From positions 1 through 31,081 of IMG/VR virus record IMGVR_UViG_3300031820_000014: 31,081 bases of DNA; one strand, written 5' to 3'. This document shows, one piece after another, positions 2,541-31,081 of the stretch; positions within the stretch are counted from its first letter, which is position 1, and every line of letters begins with the position of its first letter. Position numbers and translations under genes: made by a program. Origin of the DNA: a virus. Taxonomy: Duplodnaviria; Caudoviricetes. The notes below the pieces were generated by a model, which was not told the origin of the DNA, made no database searches, and saw only the letters and a list, made by a program, of their open reading frames with translations.

Positions 2541-3909
2541 CGGCGTCGACTTTTCGGGGATAGACCCGCTCGACTTCGCCTGGTCGTTCGGTGGCACGTC
2601 CTACATGGGTGTGCCGGGCATCACCGGCAACAAGACGGAGACGCTGGAGTCCAGCTTCCTGGGCATGGTCCAGGGCGCCTACAAGCGCAACGGGGTCATC
2701 TTCGCCTGCATGCGGGCGCGGTTGTCCGTGTTCAGCGAGGCGCGGTTCCAGTTCCGGCGGATGCGCAACGGCCGCCCCGGCGACCTGTTCGGCACCCAGG
2801 ATCTGGCGTTGCTCGAGCAGCCGTGGCCGAACGGGACGACCGGCGACCTGCTGACCCGGATGCTGCAGGACGCGGACCTGGCCGGCAACGCGTACTGGAC
2901 GGTGCGTAACGGCAACCTGCGGCGGCTGCGTCCGGACTGGGTGTCGATCGTGATGGGGTCCCGCGACGACCCGCGGGTGGGTCCCGACGACCTGGACGCG
3001 GAGCTGCTGGGCTACGCGTACTGGCCGGGCGGGTTCGCGAACAAGCAGTCCGACCCGGTATACCTGCTGCCCGGTGAGGTGGCGCATTTCGCGCCGACCC
3101 CGGACCCGATCGCCCACTTCCGGGGGATGTCCTGGATCACCCCGGTGATCCGCGAGGTCGAGGCGGACACCGCGGCGACCGTGCACAAGCTGGCCTTCTT
3201 CCAGAACGGCGCCACCCTGCAGACCATCGTGACCTTCAAGGACATGCGGCAGGAAGTCTTCGAAGCGTTCGTCAAGAAGATGGACCTGGCCCACAAGGGC
3301 GCCCAGAACGCGTACAAGACCCTGTACCTGGGCGGCGGCGCCGACGCGACCGTGGTCGGGGCGGACCTGCGCCAGCTGGACTTCAAGGCCACCCAGGGCG
3401 CCGGGGAGACCCGCATCGCCGCGGCGGCCGGGGTGCCCCCGGCGATCGTCGGCCTGTCCGAGGGACTGCAGGGCTCGTCGTTGAACGCCGGCAACCTGGG
3501 TCAGCTGCGCCGCCAGTTCGCCGAGGGCACGCTCAGCACGCTGTGGCGTAACGCGGCCGGCTCCCTGCAGACCCTGGTCCCGCCTCCCGGCGGCGCCGAA
3601 CTCTGGTACGACACCCGCGACATTCCGTTCTTACGGGAGGACCGCAAGGACCGCGCCGACATCGCCCAGCAGCAGGCCGCCACCCTCTCGTCTCTGATCA
3701 ACGCCGGGTACACGCCGGACTCCGCCGTGGCCGCGCTGGAGGCCGAGGATTGGACGCTGCTGGTGCACACCGGCCTCTTCTCGGTGCAGCTCCAACCGCC
3801 CGGCGCCGGGGCGCTCCCGGGAAGCATCGAGGGCCAGGCCAATCAGGCGGCCATCACCGCCGGACCTGTGGCGGGTGGTGCCGGCCCAAAAGCGCCACCG
3901 TGGGCGTAG
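2485..3909 (+). CDS. Phage portal protein (HK97 family)
   Basis: 474 aa. Motifs L..PWPNGT, DADLAGNAY, LRPDWV, GMSW, FFQNGA, IAAAAGVPP..VG. RBS GGAGGAGG upstream. Confidence 0.93.
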   Translation: MNLLQSLSRRGGSSTQRYDGVDFSGIDPLDFAWSFGGTSYMGVPGITGNKTETLESSFLGMVQGAYKRNGVIFACMRARLSVFSEARFQFRRMRNGRPGDLFGTQDLALLEQPWPNGTTGDLLTRMLQDADLAGNAYWTVRNGNLRRLRPDWVSIVMGSRDDPRVGPDDLDAELLGYAYWPGGFANKQSDPVYLLPGEVAHFAPTPDPIAHFRGMSWITPVIREVEADTAATVHKLAFFQNGATLQTIVTFKDMRQEVFEAFVKKMDLAHKGAQNAYKTLYLGGGADATVVGADLRQLDFKATQGAGETRIAAAAGVPPAIVGLSEGLQGSSLNAGNLGQLRRQFAEGTLSTLWRNAAGSLQTLVPPPGGAELWYDTRDIPFLREDRKDRADIAQQQAATLSSLINAGYTPDSAVAALEAEDWTLLVHTGLFSVQLQPPGAGALPGSIEGQANQAAITAGPVAGGAGPKAPPWA

Positions 3910-5018
3910 GCCCCGATGCCCACGACGAGGTCTCAGCGGCGCTGCTCGAGGCCATGAACACGCTGGCGCCGCGCACCGCCGCTCAACGCTCCCTGGCCGA
4001 GCGAGGCGTCTGGGACGAGGCGAAGCATCCACGCAACCCGAAGGGCACACCGGGTGGTGGGAAGTTCAAGTCCCTCGCCCAGCGGATCACGGAGCACCTG
4101 CAGGGCTTCCTCACCGGCGACAGTCAGGGCGATCCGTTCGAGGGCTTCAGCCGCGAACAGCTCCGCAAGGTGGCCAAGGCCAGGGGACATAACCTGCCCC
4201 GCGGCGCCAGCCGGGACCACATCGCCGCGCTGCTGCTCGATGACCTGAAGGCCAACCACCACGCAGCGGGGCACTCGTCCGCGGCTCCGCATGCGCCCGC
4301 CGTGAACGCACCGAGTGCGGCAGCGATCAAGAAGGCCGAACCGTCGAAGCCGAAGGCCCACCTGACTGGTAAGGATGCGCTGATCGCCGCCCCCCTCGAA
4401 TTCGGCGCCGGAGAGTTCGTCCGCGGTGCTCACGGTGATCTCAAGCATGAACTGGACCCGGACTCGCTCGAGGAGTACCGCGGCAGTGGCTACGAGGACA
4501 TCAACGCCTACCTGCGTGCCATCGGTGCGGGTGAGCATCCGGACGACATAGACCCGGACGGCGATTTCAAGCAGACCGTCTCCGCGATCGACTTGGCGAT
4601 GCGGCATTCGAAGCTGACCCAGCCAGTCGCCGTTCACCGCGGCGTGATGGGCCTTGAGACCATGCTCCCCGGCATCGATACCAAGAGCAGTCTGGTCGGC
4701 CTCGAATATGTCGAGGACGCGTTCGCCTCGACAACGGTCGACCGGCGGGTCGCCGATGGCTTCGGCGGTGCGGGAGTGGTCCTGAACATCGCCGCCCCGA
4801 AGGGCGTCGGCGCTATCCAGTTGTCGAAGTTCTACGACGGTGCGATGCGCGGCGGAACACCGGTCGCGAACCAGAACGCCAAATCGATCAGCAACGTCAT
4901 CCACGAGCCCGACTTCGAGGCCGAGCTCCTCCTCCAGCGCGGCCTACGGTACCGGGTCGTCGGAGACCGGACCGTCAACGGCGTTCGGGAACTGGACATC
5001 GAGGTGGTGCATCCGTGA
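3900..5018 (+). CDS. VIP2/C2-like (R-S-E class) mono-ADP-ribosyltransferase with N-terminal KHPR leader and Rho_N/HeH-like domain
   Basis: GTG at 3900 overlaps the portal stop. Contains YEDINAYLR, VHRG (R at 4638), FASTT (4728) and EAELLL (ExE at 4917-4925), followed by RG..YRV. WDEAKHPR...GGKF at 4011-4067. SREQLRKVAKARG..LP.GASRDHI resembles a helix-extension-helix. Confidence 0.85.
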   Translation: MGVGPDAHDEVSAALLEAMNTLAPRTAAQRSLAERGVWDEAKHPRNPKGTPGGGKFKSLAQRITEHLQGFLTGDSQGDPFEGFSREQLRKVAKARGHNLPRGASRDHIAALLLDDLKANHHAAGHSSAAPHAPAVNAPSAAAIKKAEPSKPKAHLTGKDALIAAPLEFGAGEFVRGAHGDLKHELDPDSLEEYRGSGYEDINAYLRAIGAGEHPDDIDPDGDFKQTVSAIDLAMRHSKLTQPVAVHRGVMGLETMLPGIDTKSSLVGLEYVEDAFASTTVDRRVADGFGGAGVVLNIAAPKGVGAIQLSKFYDGAMRGGTPVANQNAKSISNVIHEPDFEAELLLQRGLRYRVVGDRTVNGVRELDIEVVHP

Positions 5019-26114: not shown

Positions 26115-26236
26115 TGCCGTCCGACACGCCGCCCCCCGGTACCCCGGCACCGTCTGGTCCCCCACCCGGTCCGACCCATCCGACCCCGACCGGTCCCGGG
26201 CAGCCACCGAGCCCTCCTCCACCACCACCGCGCTGA
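26114..26236 (+). CDS. Proline-rich micro-ORF (40 aa, 21 Pro)
   Basis: TGATG coupling. MPSDTPPPGTPAPSGPPPGPTHPTPTGPGQPPSPPPPPPR. Below the ORF-track cut-off. Confidence 0.5.
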   Translation: MPSDTPPPGTPAPSGPPPGPTHPTPTGPGQPPSPPPPPPR

Positions 26237-26264
26237 CCTCCTCCCAGGCGTACGCTGGATCGCG

Positions 26265-26367
26265 GCTCGATGTAGCTCAGTGGATAGAGCGCCGCCCAGG
26301 GCGCGAGGGTCGTCCAGGACTCGACGCGTCGAGGCGGAGGTCGCCGGTTCGAGTCCGGTCTCGAAGC
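26265..26367 (+). ncRNA. tRNA-like RNA with extended anticodon arm
   Basis: TA-GCTC AGTGGATA GAGC D arm, CCGCC/GGCGG stem enclosing 36 nt, AGGTC variable loop, GCCGG TTCGAGT CCGGT T arm, bulged acceptor stem, no CCA end. Confidence 0.7.
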
Positions 26368-26409
26368 TAGGAAGCGCTAGGTGCTGGACTCGCCTGGCGC
26401 TTCTGCCTT

Positions 26410-26610
26410 TCAGCGGCCGGTCAGCAGCTGCGCGTCGTCGACGTGCCCGTCCGCGTACTGCTCGTCCCCACACACCAGGCAGTACCAGGACAGATGGCCG
26501 CCTGCCCGCGCCCGGTCACAGGAGCAGTGGGCGAAGCCGACCTTGACCTTGCGCGGCCCGAGCGGGTGACCGTTCCGGCAGGTCACCGGTGGGTGCTGGG
26601 CACTGAACAC
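26410..26610 (-). CDS. Small Cys/His-rich putative zinc-finger protein
   Basis: 66 aa with CRNGH, CSC, GH, CLVC. Leaderless GTG 7 nt after TACGAT. Confidence 0.75.
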   Translation of the reverse strand: MFSAQHPPVTCRNGHPLGPRKVKVGFAHCSCDRARAGGHLSWYCLVCGDEQYADGHVDDAQLLTGR

Positions 26611-26617
26611 AAGCCCG

Positions 26618-26634
26618 ATCGTACGACTGTTCGA
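26618..26634 (-). promoter_or_regulatory. Actinobacterial LexA (SOS) box overlapping a -10 element
   Basis: Minus strand TCGAACAGTCGTACGA against consensus TCGAAC-N4-GTTCGA (1 mismatch). -10 TACGAT at 26623-26618. Confidence 0.75.
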
Positions 26635-27189: not shown

Positions 27190-27417
27190 ATGGACGGCTG
27201 GACGATCGCCTGGCTGGTCTGGGGCGCCCTGTTCCTGCTCATCGAGGGCCTGGCCCTGGTCAAGAGCAGGCACCAGGAGGGAACCCTCTCCGACAACGTG
27301 TGGCGCTGGTTCGGCGTCCGGTCCCGGCACTGGACGGCCTGGGTGATCGTCCGCCGGCTGGTCCTGGCCCTGTTGCTGGTCGTCCTCACGCTCCACCTGA
27401 CGCTGGCGTGGCCGTGA
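27190..27417 (+). CDS. Small two-TM membrane protein
   Basis: WTIAWLVW..LF..IEG.AL....TLS..VW.WF, second TM ending ..HL. Confidence 0.75.
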   Translation: MDGWTIAWLVWGALFLLIEGLALVKSRHQEGTLSDNVWRWFGVRSRHWTAWVIVRRLVLALLLVVLTLHLTLAWP

Positions 27418-27779
27418 CCGGGACCGTCGCTGTCGACTTCGATGGCGTGATCCACACGTACGAGCGCGGCTGGGCGGACGGCAGCATCTACGGCGACTTC
27501 ATGCCAGGCGCGGTCCAGGGACTGACCCGGCTGATGTTCCGCTACGCCGTGTTCATCCACACCACCCGCAACGCCCGGCAGGTGGCGCACTGGATCGAGG
27601 ACCGGTCCGGACACGGCTTCGAGTGCACGACGTGGTTCCCGCGCTGGCGCAAGTTCTGGAATACCAAGGACTTGCTGCTGGTGACTAATCGCAAGCTGCC
27701 GGCGCTCGCGTACCTCGATGACCGGGCGGTGCGCTTCACCGACTGGCCGGCCGCCCTCGCGGAGATCGCGCCGGACTGA
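27414..27779 (+). CDS. Minimal (capless) HAD-superfamily phosphatase
   Basis: VAVDFDGVIH (motif I), HTTR (II), K (III), YLDDRA (IV). GTGA coupling. Confidence 0.8.
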   Translation: MTGTVAVDFDGVIHTYERGWADGSIYGDFMPGAVQGLTRLMFRYAVFIHTTRNARQVAHWIEDRSGHGFECTTWFPRWRKFWNTKDLLLVTNRKLPALAYLDDRAVRFTDWPAALAEIAPD

Positions 27780-28297: not shown

Positions 28298-28370
28298 TGC
28301 AGGGTAGAGCAGTTGGTAGCTCGCCGGCCTCATAAGCCGGAGGTCGCCGGTTCGAGTCCGGTCCCTGCCA
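28298..28370 (+). tRNA. tRNA-Met(CAT), initiator-like
   Basis: TGCAGGG/CCCTGCC acceptor with 1:72 mismatch, GAGC/GCTC D stem, CCGGC-CTCATAA-GCCGG anticodon arm, TTCGAGT T loop. CCA not encoded. Confidence 0.9.
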
Positions 28371-28401
28371 CGCCTTGCGACCAACAGGCAGTCCCACCAC
28401 A

Positions 28402-30832: not shown

Positions 30833-31000
30833 CTCGATGCCTCCCTAGCCCCCCGACAGCCCGCGACCGACATCAACGGACTGCCGGGGGAGTCCTACCT
30901 GGGGTGGCGTGCCGACCCCGTGAGCCCCACGGGGCCGGCGCGCGGGGAGCGACCGTCAGCTTGCCAACCGGGGGACGCACCCGTCTCGCAAGGTACCATA

Positions 31001-31040
31001 GGTGGCTATAGGAGGCTACAGGCGGTTAGGAGAGGCTACT
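31001..31040. repeat. Four phased imperfect 10-bp direct repeats
   Basis: GGTGGCTATA / GGAGGCTACA / GGCGGTTAGG / AGAGGCTACT. Confidence 0.6.
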
Positions 31041-31081
31041 TGTGGTGATCGGTCCTGTCGTGATCGAATCGGCTCGCCAAC

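What the first reader, a model, noticed from the sequence alone, without database searches (positions are those of the whole stretch)
26265..26367. tRNA mimic whose anticodon loop is replaced by a 36-nt structured extension
Seen: canonical D arm, 5-bp anticodon stem, variable loop and T arm. The segment 26297-26332 folds further (GGCGCG/CGCGTC, then GGGTC/GACTC) and is capped by a GTCCAG loop. The acceptor stem is bulged (GCTCGATG/CTCGAAGC) and lacks CCA. A possible -10 (TACGCT, 26251) precedes it. The nominal anticodon position reads GGG (Pro) but with A33. The elbow is preserved and the insert base-pairs, which argues against random decay. Arm order is normal, unlike permuted YrlA RNAs. Inference: a non-decoding tRNA mimic (decoy for anticodon nucleases or tRNA-sensing defences, or a ribosome/synthetase ligand) or a tRNA with an unusual intron.
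Basis: partly seen in the sequence, partly recalled or inferred. Interest (0 to 1): 0.8.

Follow-up and report, generated by a model that had tools for sequence, protein, structure and literature searches.

The report
Anticodon-locked phage tRNA with antisense switch
A soil actinobacterial phage carries an aspartate tRNA gene with 30 extra bases in its codon-reading loop and a downstream hairpin complementary to its own 3' half, so it likely cannot decode and is predicted to flip between two folds, possibly as a DNA-damage-induced switch, although no second copy or expression data were found.

Summary
It derives from tRNA-Asp(GUC): with the loop left free, this anticodon arm matched only tRNA-Asp, in 55 of 61 genomes of the likely host family. 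The GUC anticodon is still present. A 30-nt insert replaces U33 and pairs with it, and no excision restores U33 or has splice geometry.

Three features were missed. (1) The hairpin just downstream is antisense to the tRNA's 3' half, more strongly than in any of 418 ordinary tRNA contexts, and is predicted to unfold the T arm. (2) Its loop is the exact complement of the insert's loop. (3) A LexA-type box overlaps the -10, and a second one fronts a convergent small zinc-ribbon gene.

Best reading: a non-decoding, likely SOS-induced, two-state RNA (0.42). A decaying pseudogene remains open (0.27): there is no homologue of the insert, the insert's fold is only weakly non-random (p about 0.04), the acceptor stem is damaged, and no RNA data exist. 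The scan had already noted anticodon-less phage tRNA mimics on other DNA, one with an alternative fold. The Asp origin and the self-antisense design are new here.

The parts
26248..26263 (+). LexA-type (SOS) box overlapping the -10 hexamer TACGCT (26251-26256); predicted promoter and operator of the RNA
   Evidence: One of 3 sites of CGWAC-N4-GWWCG in the window. Consensus from PMC9380542; its validated alkB box shares 11 consecutive bases with this site. Function inferred.
26265..26272 (+). 5' strand of the irregular acceptor stem (position 1 = 26266 in the Rfam register; U6 has lost its partner)
26273..26296 (+). U8-A9, D arm (4 bp), G26 and 5' strand of the anticodon stem
26298..26327 (+). 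30-nt insert in place of U33; 6-bp and 5-bp helices, apical loop 26312-26317; its first helix pairs with the anticodon
26328..26332 (+). Retained Asp anticodon G34-U35-C36 with G37 and A38
26333..26359 (+). 3' anticodon-stem strand, variable loop and T arm (G49.U65); 28 of 29 identical to the window's tRNA-Met over 26332-26360; target of the antisense hairpin
26360..26369 (+). 3' acceptor strand with one base missing, G73 (26366), no encoded CCA
26370..26409 (+). Terminator-like 14-bp hairpin (26370-26404, loop 26384-26390). The loop is complementary to the insert loop and to the T arm; 26383-26409 can form a 26-bp helix with 26331-26359
26410..26610 (-). Convergent 66-aa Cys/His (zinc-ribbon-like) gene of an actinobacterial family of unknown function; it ends just past the hairpin
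26618..26634 (-). Second LexA-type box (11 of 12 to consensus) overlapping a -10 hexamer 7 nt before the start of the zinc-ribbon gene
28298..28371 (+). Ordinary tRNA-Met(CAT) of the same phage; shares the 3' half with the element

Best explanation
It is a tRNA-Asp(GUC) gene of an actinobacterial phage in which a 30-nt hairpin replaces U33 and is predicted to pair with the anticodon, so it likely cannot decode, and it likely works as a two-state regulatory RNA made from a predicted LexA-repressed promoter. Shown: Asp ancestry, intact elbow, damaged acceptor, complementarity of the downstream hairpin to the 3' half and to the insert loop, and two LexA-type boxes over -10 hexamers. Inferred: after DNA damage the RNA is transcribed. 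In state A the cloverleaf forms, the downstream hairpin folds as a terminator and its loop is captured by the insert loop, which copies the T-arm segment at 5 of 6 bases; this gives a discrete elbow-bearing RNA. In state B the nascent hairpin loop invades the T arm and forms a 26-bp helix, which destroys both the elbow and the terminator; this gives read-through towards the convergent zinc-ribbon gene and the downstream late genes, or decay of the double strand. Whatever binds or stabilises the elbow (RNase P, tRNA-modifying enzymes, a phage protein) would set the ratio.
For: Ancestry. All 14 D, anticodon and T pairs are kept; 3 are changed on both sides against host tRNA-Asp. The cloverleaf is the minimum-energy fold with the real insert but with only 125 of 1000 shuffled inserts. 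Antisense helix: -47.1 kcal/mol, reached by 0 of 418 ordinary tRNA contexts (minimum -42.1, median -24); the T stem falls from 0.75 to 0.001, which happens in 3 of 258 controls. The two folds lie 4.7 kcal/mol apart, and state B is already favoured before the hairpin is complete. Loop-loop complement of 6 bp: 70 of 31074 window 7-mers, 11 of 5000 shuffled loops, at most 4 bp in 20 other long-arm bodies. The hairpin folds better on the + strand (-23.6 against -15.5). LexA-type boxes: 3 sites in 31 kb, 2 of them flank this cassette, and these 2 are the only ones among 46 TANNNT sites that overlap a box.
Against: No homologue of the insert or the hairpin in any search, so no covariation test was possible. 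The insert's stability is marginal (127 of 3000) and the anticodon lock arises in 1201 of 3000 shuffles. By other nulls the antisense match is weaker: 43 of 2000 shuffles and 139 of 656 window tiles by duplex energy, 96-211 of 2674 tiles by alignment score. The 418 controls include many homologous genes. The nearest-neighbour ensemble puts almost all full-length RNA in state B; state A needs tertiary contacts that the model does not score. The LexA pattern was tuned after I saw the site. No other of 29 long-arm bodies has a strict box, and only 1-2 of 13 zinc-ribbon relatives do. An intramolecular kiss would need a sharp bend at the first internal loop (my geometric estimate). The hairpin has only a weak U tract.
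Confidence: 0.42

Rival explanations
1. Decaying pseudogene: a phage tRNA-Asp was inactivated by an insertion or partial duplication in its anticodon loop and has begun to lose its acceptor stem; the antisense hairpin is a by-product of inverted duplication or chance.
For: Singleton in all searches. Acceptor lesions (missing partner of U6, 1:72 mismatch), whereas 16 of 20 other long-arm bodies keep 6-7 acceptor pairs in register. The changes against host tRNA-Asp in the D and T stems are shared with an ordinary mobile tRNA-Asp (L276), so they predate the insert. The full-length RNA is predicted to misfold. The intact elbow is partly ascertainment.
Against: The insert is not a recent copy of anything: no match within 3 mismatches in 482 other loci, and likeness to either tRNA half is not robust. 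If it is old, the core should have decayed too. Promoter, operator and a + strand-biased hairpin are retained, and the antisense and loop-loop matches are rare in controls.
Confidence: 0.27
2. Stable trans-acting tRNA mimic: the RNA is processed, keeps the elbow and titrates a host tRNA-binding or tRNA-sensing protein during induction; the hairpin is only a terminator.
For: Intact elbow. Own promoter and terminator. A wide class of such bodies in phages: 66 of 124 pattern matches, which include intron-type genes, and 20 strict bodies without U33. In another actinophage group 8 of 16 consensus pairs show double changes. L323 has the same anticodon stem and an irregular acceptor after lysis genes.
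Against: A buried anticodon is a poor bait for anticodon nucleases. The acceptor is unlikely to be charged. It does not explain the exceptional antisense hairpin.
Confidence: 0.18
3. Processing signal in cis (t-element): RNase P cuts at the tRNA-like fold to end or stabilise the endolysin and membrane-gene message upstream.
For: It lies 150 nt after the lysis-region membrane gene on the same strand. L323 and L206 carry tRNA-shaped RNAs before terminators downstream of tail or lysis genes.
Against: It has its own predicted promoter and operator. [quoted passage not shown]
Confidence: 0.08
4. tRNA-Asp with a 29-nt intron that is spliced to give a working tRNA with C or A at position 33.
For: 3 of 7 single-excision products restore the GUC anticodon. 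C33 occurs in 18 of 119 ordinary tRNAs of GC-rich loci. G73 is kept.
Against: No product has U33 (51 of 52 Asp genes have it). No bulge-helix-bulge gives a 7-nt loop. Far too short for a group I intron. Bacteria lack protein-spliced tRNA introns (PMC4090602). The acceptor is damaged.
Confidence: 0.05

Closest known systems
Bacterial tRNA-Asp(GUC) (Rfam RF00005), Micromonosporaceae chromosomal type and mobile-array type (L276)
   Same: Identical at 26-32, 34-36 and 38-50 to the host-family gene; G49.U65; G73; D and T stems and G37 as in L276.
   Different: 30-nt insert in place of U33, anticodon paired, acceptor bulged with a 1:72 mismatch, antisense hairpin downstream.
Phage T4 RNA C and RNA D (species 1 and 2)
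   Same: Phage-encoded late small RNAs of unknown function (PMC9697503, passages). Their tRNA-like shape is recalled and was named in the scan's earlier notes; not tested here.
   Different: No sequence comparison made. Different host phylum. No antisense hairpin or LexA box is known to me for them.
YrlA Y RNAs (PMC4201824, passages)
   Same: Non-decoding RNA that keeps D and T arms and elbow contacts; present in actinobacteria and their phages.
   Different: In YrlA the T arm precedes the D arm and the gene lies within 4 kb of Ro60. Here the order is normal, there is no Rfam YrlA match, and no Ro60 among 9 genes scanned between 24689 and 29569.
Archaeal and eukaryotic intron-containing pre-tRNAs (PMC4090602, passages)
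   Same: Extra sequence in the anticodon loop that pairs with the anticodon.
   Different: No bulge-helix-bulge, insert at position 33 rather than 37/38, bacterial host.
Transcription attenuators and riboswitch expression platforms (general knowledge)
   Same: Two mutually exclusive folds, one of which removes a terminator-like hairpin.
   Different: The sensor would be a tRNA elbow within the same RNA; no ligand known; not shown.

Membership tests
Decoding tRNA-Asp(GUC) | Cloverleaf with D, anticodon and T stems and invariant core bases | tested here: met
Decoding tRNA-Asp(GUC) | GUC anticodon and G73 | tested here: met
   26328-26330 and 26366; G73 in 52 of 52 Asp genes
Decoding tRNA-Asp(GUC) | 7-nt anticodon loop with U33 | tested here: not met
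   36-nt loop; no excision gives U33
Decoding tRNA-Asp(GUC) | Regular 7-bp acceptor stem | tested here: not met
   3 pairs in strict register; 5-7 only with bulges
Decoding tRNA-Asp(GUC) | Charged by AspRS | not testable with these tools
   needs an assay
Protein-spliced tRNA intron | Bulge-helix-bulge at the splice sites leaving a 7-nt loop | tested here: not met
   the only BHB-like motif leaves 23 nt
Group I intron in tRNA | Catalytic core of well over 100 nt, 5' exon ending in U | tested here: not met
   29-30 nt insert, exon ends in C32, no Rfam match
YrlA Y RNA | T arm 5' of D arm | tested here: not met
   normal order
YrlA Y RNA | Ro60 gene within 4 kb | tested here: not met
   no such Pfam match in the 9 genes scanned between 24689 and 29569; some small ORFs were not scanned
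Anticodon-less phage tRNA-shaped RNAs (informal class) | tRNA body in a phage with a long structured loop and no free anticodon | tested here: met
Anticodon-less phage tRNA-shaped RNAs (informal class) | Conserved in relatives with covariation | tested here: not met
   no homologue found; absence from the searched sets only
LexA regulon member | tCGAAC-N4-GNNCGa box over the promoter | tested here: inconclusive
   core matches with one A-to-T change that also occurs in validated boxes; binding untested
Attenuator or RNA switch | Two exclusive folds of similar energy, one lacking the terminator | tested here: met
   predicted only:
Attenuator or RNA switch | Conditional termination in vivo | not testable with these tools
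   no RNA data

The most novel reading that the evidence does not exclude
A tRNA gene turned into an SOS-induced attenuator: the RNA senses the state of its own tRNA elbow, and a loop grafted into the anticodon arm copies the T arm so as to capture the terminator loop and block self-invasion, thereby timing read-through from the endolysin side into the downstream holin-like and tRNA-Met genes.
Probability: 0.17. Interest if true: 0.85.

Novelty: new variant of a known kind. Interest (0 to 1): 0.55.

Why it matters
Phages carry many tRNA-shaped genes with long loops that standard tools miss. About 2000 IMG/VR stretches match a simple pattern, and about half of those sampled are true tRNA bodies. 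Their origin and job are open. Here the parent can be named and the anticodon is still in place, so the route from tRNA to non-decoding RNA is visible in one sequence. If the two-state fold and the LexA control hold, it would be a tRNA reused as a regulatory switch, testable with a few point changes in a reporter. If it is a pseudogene, it shows how such genes arise.

Tried and rejected
Homologue searches that found none:
- DNA patterns in viral contigs (6 hits, 28: 4, 36: 0, 62: 71), metagenomes (35: 24 hits, one the window's own record, 23 intron-type tRNAs with U33) and genomes (26: 2; 86: 120 of about 660 shown, all ordinary tRNA-Asp).
- Whole genomes: 19 of 401 and 2 of 301 matched; none is a homologue as far as inspected.
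- blastn on phages and plasmids.
- 63 tail-gene and 45 neighbour-gene relatives (ARAGORN on 60 of the 63).
- A single-sequence covariance model over 84 and 13 sources and one genome: self 176 bits, next 49.5, ordinary tRNAs about equal.
- Endolysin and single tail-protein queries gave no loci.

Sequencing runs: no RNA holder listed.

Ideas dropped:
- Arg ancestry from the D loop: replaced by Asp.
- Insert as a duplicated tRNA half: 215-828 of 2000 shuffles against its own half and 82-1122 of 2000 against host Asp, depending on scoring, and an aligner maps it to the other half equally well. Origin unresolved.
- Recent copying from the window's tRNA-Met: 28 of 29 is high (maximum 26 in 270 same-locus pairs), but an unrelated Asp reaches 27. 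Suggestive only.
- Conserved cassette with the zinc-ribbon gene: 0 of 4 and 0 of 13 relatives have a long-arm tRNA.
- Loop-loop pairing as a class feature: 0 of 20 others.
- The contig end as a tRNA-Asp attachment core: not significant.
- The 14-bp palindrome at 26320-26333: 9 such in the window.
- The sigma-70 scan found no promoter (it does not cover -10-only promoters).

Full report
Setting. The window is one 31,081-base viral contig with terminase, portal, protease, capsid, tail and endolysin genes in order. Relatives of its last tail gene are named mostly as Micromonospora proteins where names exist, and 5 of 12 genome loci are Micromonospora, so the host is likely a Micromonosporaceae soil bacterium (inference). 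The element lies 150 nt after a membrane-protein gene that follows the endolysin. An ordinary tRNA-Met lies 2 kb further on.

Observation. The arms, the 36-nt loop and its two helices are as described. ARAGORN and default Rfam miss it; with relaxed filters RF00005 scores 34.7 bits with a 35-nt local insert. U8, A14, G15, G18, G19, A21, C48, G53-C56, A58 and C61 are all present. A contig of the probable source run has no difference here.

What it came from. Among 99 ordinary tRNAs from GC-rich loci, the best body match was a mobile tRNA-Asp(GUC) whose loop ends in the same five bases as the element's (L276). A genome scan for Asp genes with an insert returned only ordinary ones (120 of about 660 shown), but showed that Micromonospora and Actinoplanes tRNA-Asp has the element's anticodon arm. 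The unbiased test left the seven loop bases free: 55 of 61 family genomes had one match each, all with the Asp loop. G49.U65 occurs in 51 of 52 and G73 in 52 of 52 Asp genes (that set was enriched by my pattern). So the loop is C32, a 30-nt insert in place of U33, then G34-U35-C36-G37-A38. Against host tRNA-Asp no D, anticodon or T pair is broken and three are changed on both sides; the D and T stems equal those of L276, so these changes predate the insert. In the Rfam register the acceptor has lost the partner of U6 and has a 1:72 mismatch. The absence of CCA says nothing: 11 of 122 Asp matches encode it.

Not an intron. Of 7 distinct products of a single excision leaving a 7-nt loop, 3 give GUC and none gives U33; the only bulge-helix-bulge-like motif leaves 23 nt. 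Bacterial tRNA introns are group I, and bacteria lack protein-spliced ones (PMC4090602, passages).

How non-random the insert is. 127 of 3000 dinucleotide shuffles fold the arm as stably, and 1201 also bury the anticodon, so the lock alone is not evidence. The whole cloverleaf stays the minimum-energy fold with the real insert but with only 125 of 1000 shuffled ones. Its origin is unresolved.

The downstream hairpin. A 14-bp hairpin starts two bases after the acceptor and folds better on the + strand (-23.6 against -15.5 kcal/mol). Its base occurs in two hairpins of a related Micromonospora prophage, but its upper part differs. That upper part and the 3' arm are antisense to 26331-26359. The resulting 26-bp helix is predicted at -73.5 kcal/mol against -68.8 for cloverleaf plus hairpin, and is already favoured at lengths where the hairpin is incomplete. 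As a control, 0 of 418 ordinary tRNA contexts in GC-rich loci had so strong a duplex (-47.1; minimum -42.1), and the T stem was lost in 3 of the 258 that form it alone and in 1 of 92 with a strong hairpin (many controls are homologous). Shuffle nulls are less extreme: 43 of 2000 and 54 of 5000 by energy and 3-22 of 2000 by alignment, but 139 of 656 and 96-211 of 2674 window tiles do as well. The hairpin loop is also the exact 6-base complement of the insert loop (70 of 31074 window 7-mers; at most 4 bases in 20 other long-arm bodies), and the insert loop matches the targeted T-arm segment at 5 of 6 bases. The two duplexes have like energies (-9.2 and -8.9). These comparisons were made after looking, so the probabilities are optimistic.

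Promoter. The -10 hexamer lies inside a LexA-type box. The Streptomyces consensus is tCGAAC-N4-GNNCGa, validated boxes include the TCGTAC variant, and the validated alkB box shares 11 consecutive bases with this site (PMC9380542, passages). A stricter pattern has 3 sites in the window (5 strand matches, 0.73 expected). Two of them flank this cassette and are the only ones among 46 TANNNT sites that overlap a box. The second fronts a convergent 66-aa Cys/His gene with 98 relatives among cluster representatives whose stop lies just past the hairpin. Against this: the pattern was tuned by me; none of 28 other long-arm bodies has a strict box; 3 of 4 relatives of the small gene have a near-consensus box in one set but only 1-2 of 13 in another; and none of these 17 relatives has a long-arm tRNA beside it.

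Conservation. No homologue was found in viral, metagenome, genome, phage or plasmid collections, in 108 loci of related phages, or with a covariance model. The contigs of the closest protein relatives could not be fetched, so absence is not shown. The wider class is real: 66 of 124 sampled viral matches are tRNA bodies with long loops, some of them intron-type; 20 strict ones lack U33; one actinophage group shows double changes in 8 of 16 consensus pairs. L323 shares the anticodon stem, an irregular acceptor and the post-lysis position, but not the insert or the loop complement.

Mechanism. I commit to a non-decoding, likely SOS-induced two-state RNA (0.42). The sequence relations are shown; expression, LexA control, both folds, the kiss and any effect on termination are inferred. 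The folding model puts nearly all full-length RNA in the invaded state, so the tRNA state depends on tertiary contacts, the kiss or a bound protein. By my rough geometry a kiss within one molecule needs a sharp bend at the first internal loop. Rivals: pseudogene 0.27, trans-acting decoy 0.18, processing signal 0.08, spliced intron 0.05.

Literature. Nine searches on this kind of RNA showed no paper describing it; a tenth was for the SOS box. The library lacks most subscription papers. I read passages only of PMC7824862, PMC10865867, PMC12282133, PMC10264068, PMC4201824, PMC10690425, PMC4090602, PMC9697503, PMC7609411 and PMC9380542. PMC10690425 reports 10,006 candidate viral RNAs, including tRNA-like ones. 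A 21-base probe was absent from 6 of its supplementary files, but 3 files could not be searched, so a prior listing of this class cannot be excluded. Earlier notes of this scan describe anticodon-less phage tRNA mimics on other DNA; none matched this sequence.

Verdict. Real feature, parent identified, new variant of a known kind. The self-antisense hairpin, loop complement and LexA-type box raise it above a plain pseudogene, but it is a single unexpressed example. Interest 0.55.

Noticed in passing
window 28298-28371 (+): tRNA-Met(CAT) with initiator-like features (1:72 mismatch, host-type D stem) but without the three G-C pairs in the anticodon stem; followed by a very stable hairpin (z = -6.1). 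An 11-of-12 motif containing a -10 hexamer precedes both it and the element.
   Followed up: partly
window 3750-5018 (+): Gene after the portal with a C-terminal ADP-ribosyltransferase domain (PF03496, E 1.4e-15); a third LexA-type box lies at 3597-3610, inside the portal gene.
   Followed up: no
window 27414-27779 (+): HAD-type phosphatase between the element and tRNA-Met, with a weak match to the RNA-repair HAD family PF18143 (E 0.014, below cut-off).
   Followed up: no
window 26115-26247 (+): C-rich tract with small hairpins and two anti-Shine-Dalgarno-like CCTCCTCC motifs; only a weak F6 sRNA match (E 7.9).
   Followed up: partly
L206:16474-16615 (+): In a related Micromonospora prophage, a tRNA-shaped RNA with a 9-bp acceptor, 4-bp T stem, long variable arm and an enlarged anticodon loop (parsed by eye) precedes a hairpin with the same base as here; no Rfam match.
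   Followed up: partly
L287:2001-2094 (-) and L308:2001-2103 (+): Two actinophage tRNA bodies share a conserved multi-hairpin insert of about 45-53 nt in the anticodon loop; no Rfam match for L287.
   Followed up: no
L297, L310, L313, L316, L290, L347, L351, L350 (about 1992-2091): A group of actinophage anticodon-less tRNA bodies with a shared D loop, several directly ahead of a ribosome-binding site and gene.
   Followed up: partly
L292:1300-3330: At least four long-arm tRNA-shaped RNAs within 2 kb of one phage contig.
   Followed up: no
L270, L271, L276, L277, L285: tRNA arrays in Micromonosporaceae genomes; several genes have C33 instead of U33 (18 of 119 GC-rich tRNAs), and L271 holds an anticodon-less body inside the array.
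   Followed up: no
window 30990-31045: Three short direct repeats near the contig end, possibly integrase arm sites or an origin (seen).
   Followed up: no
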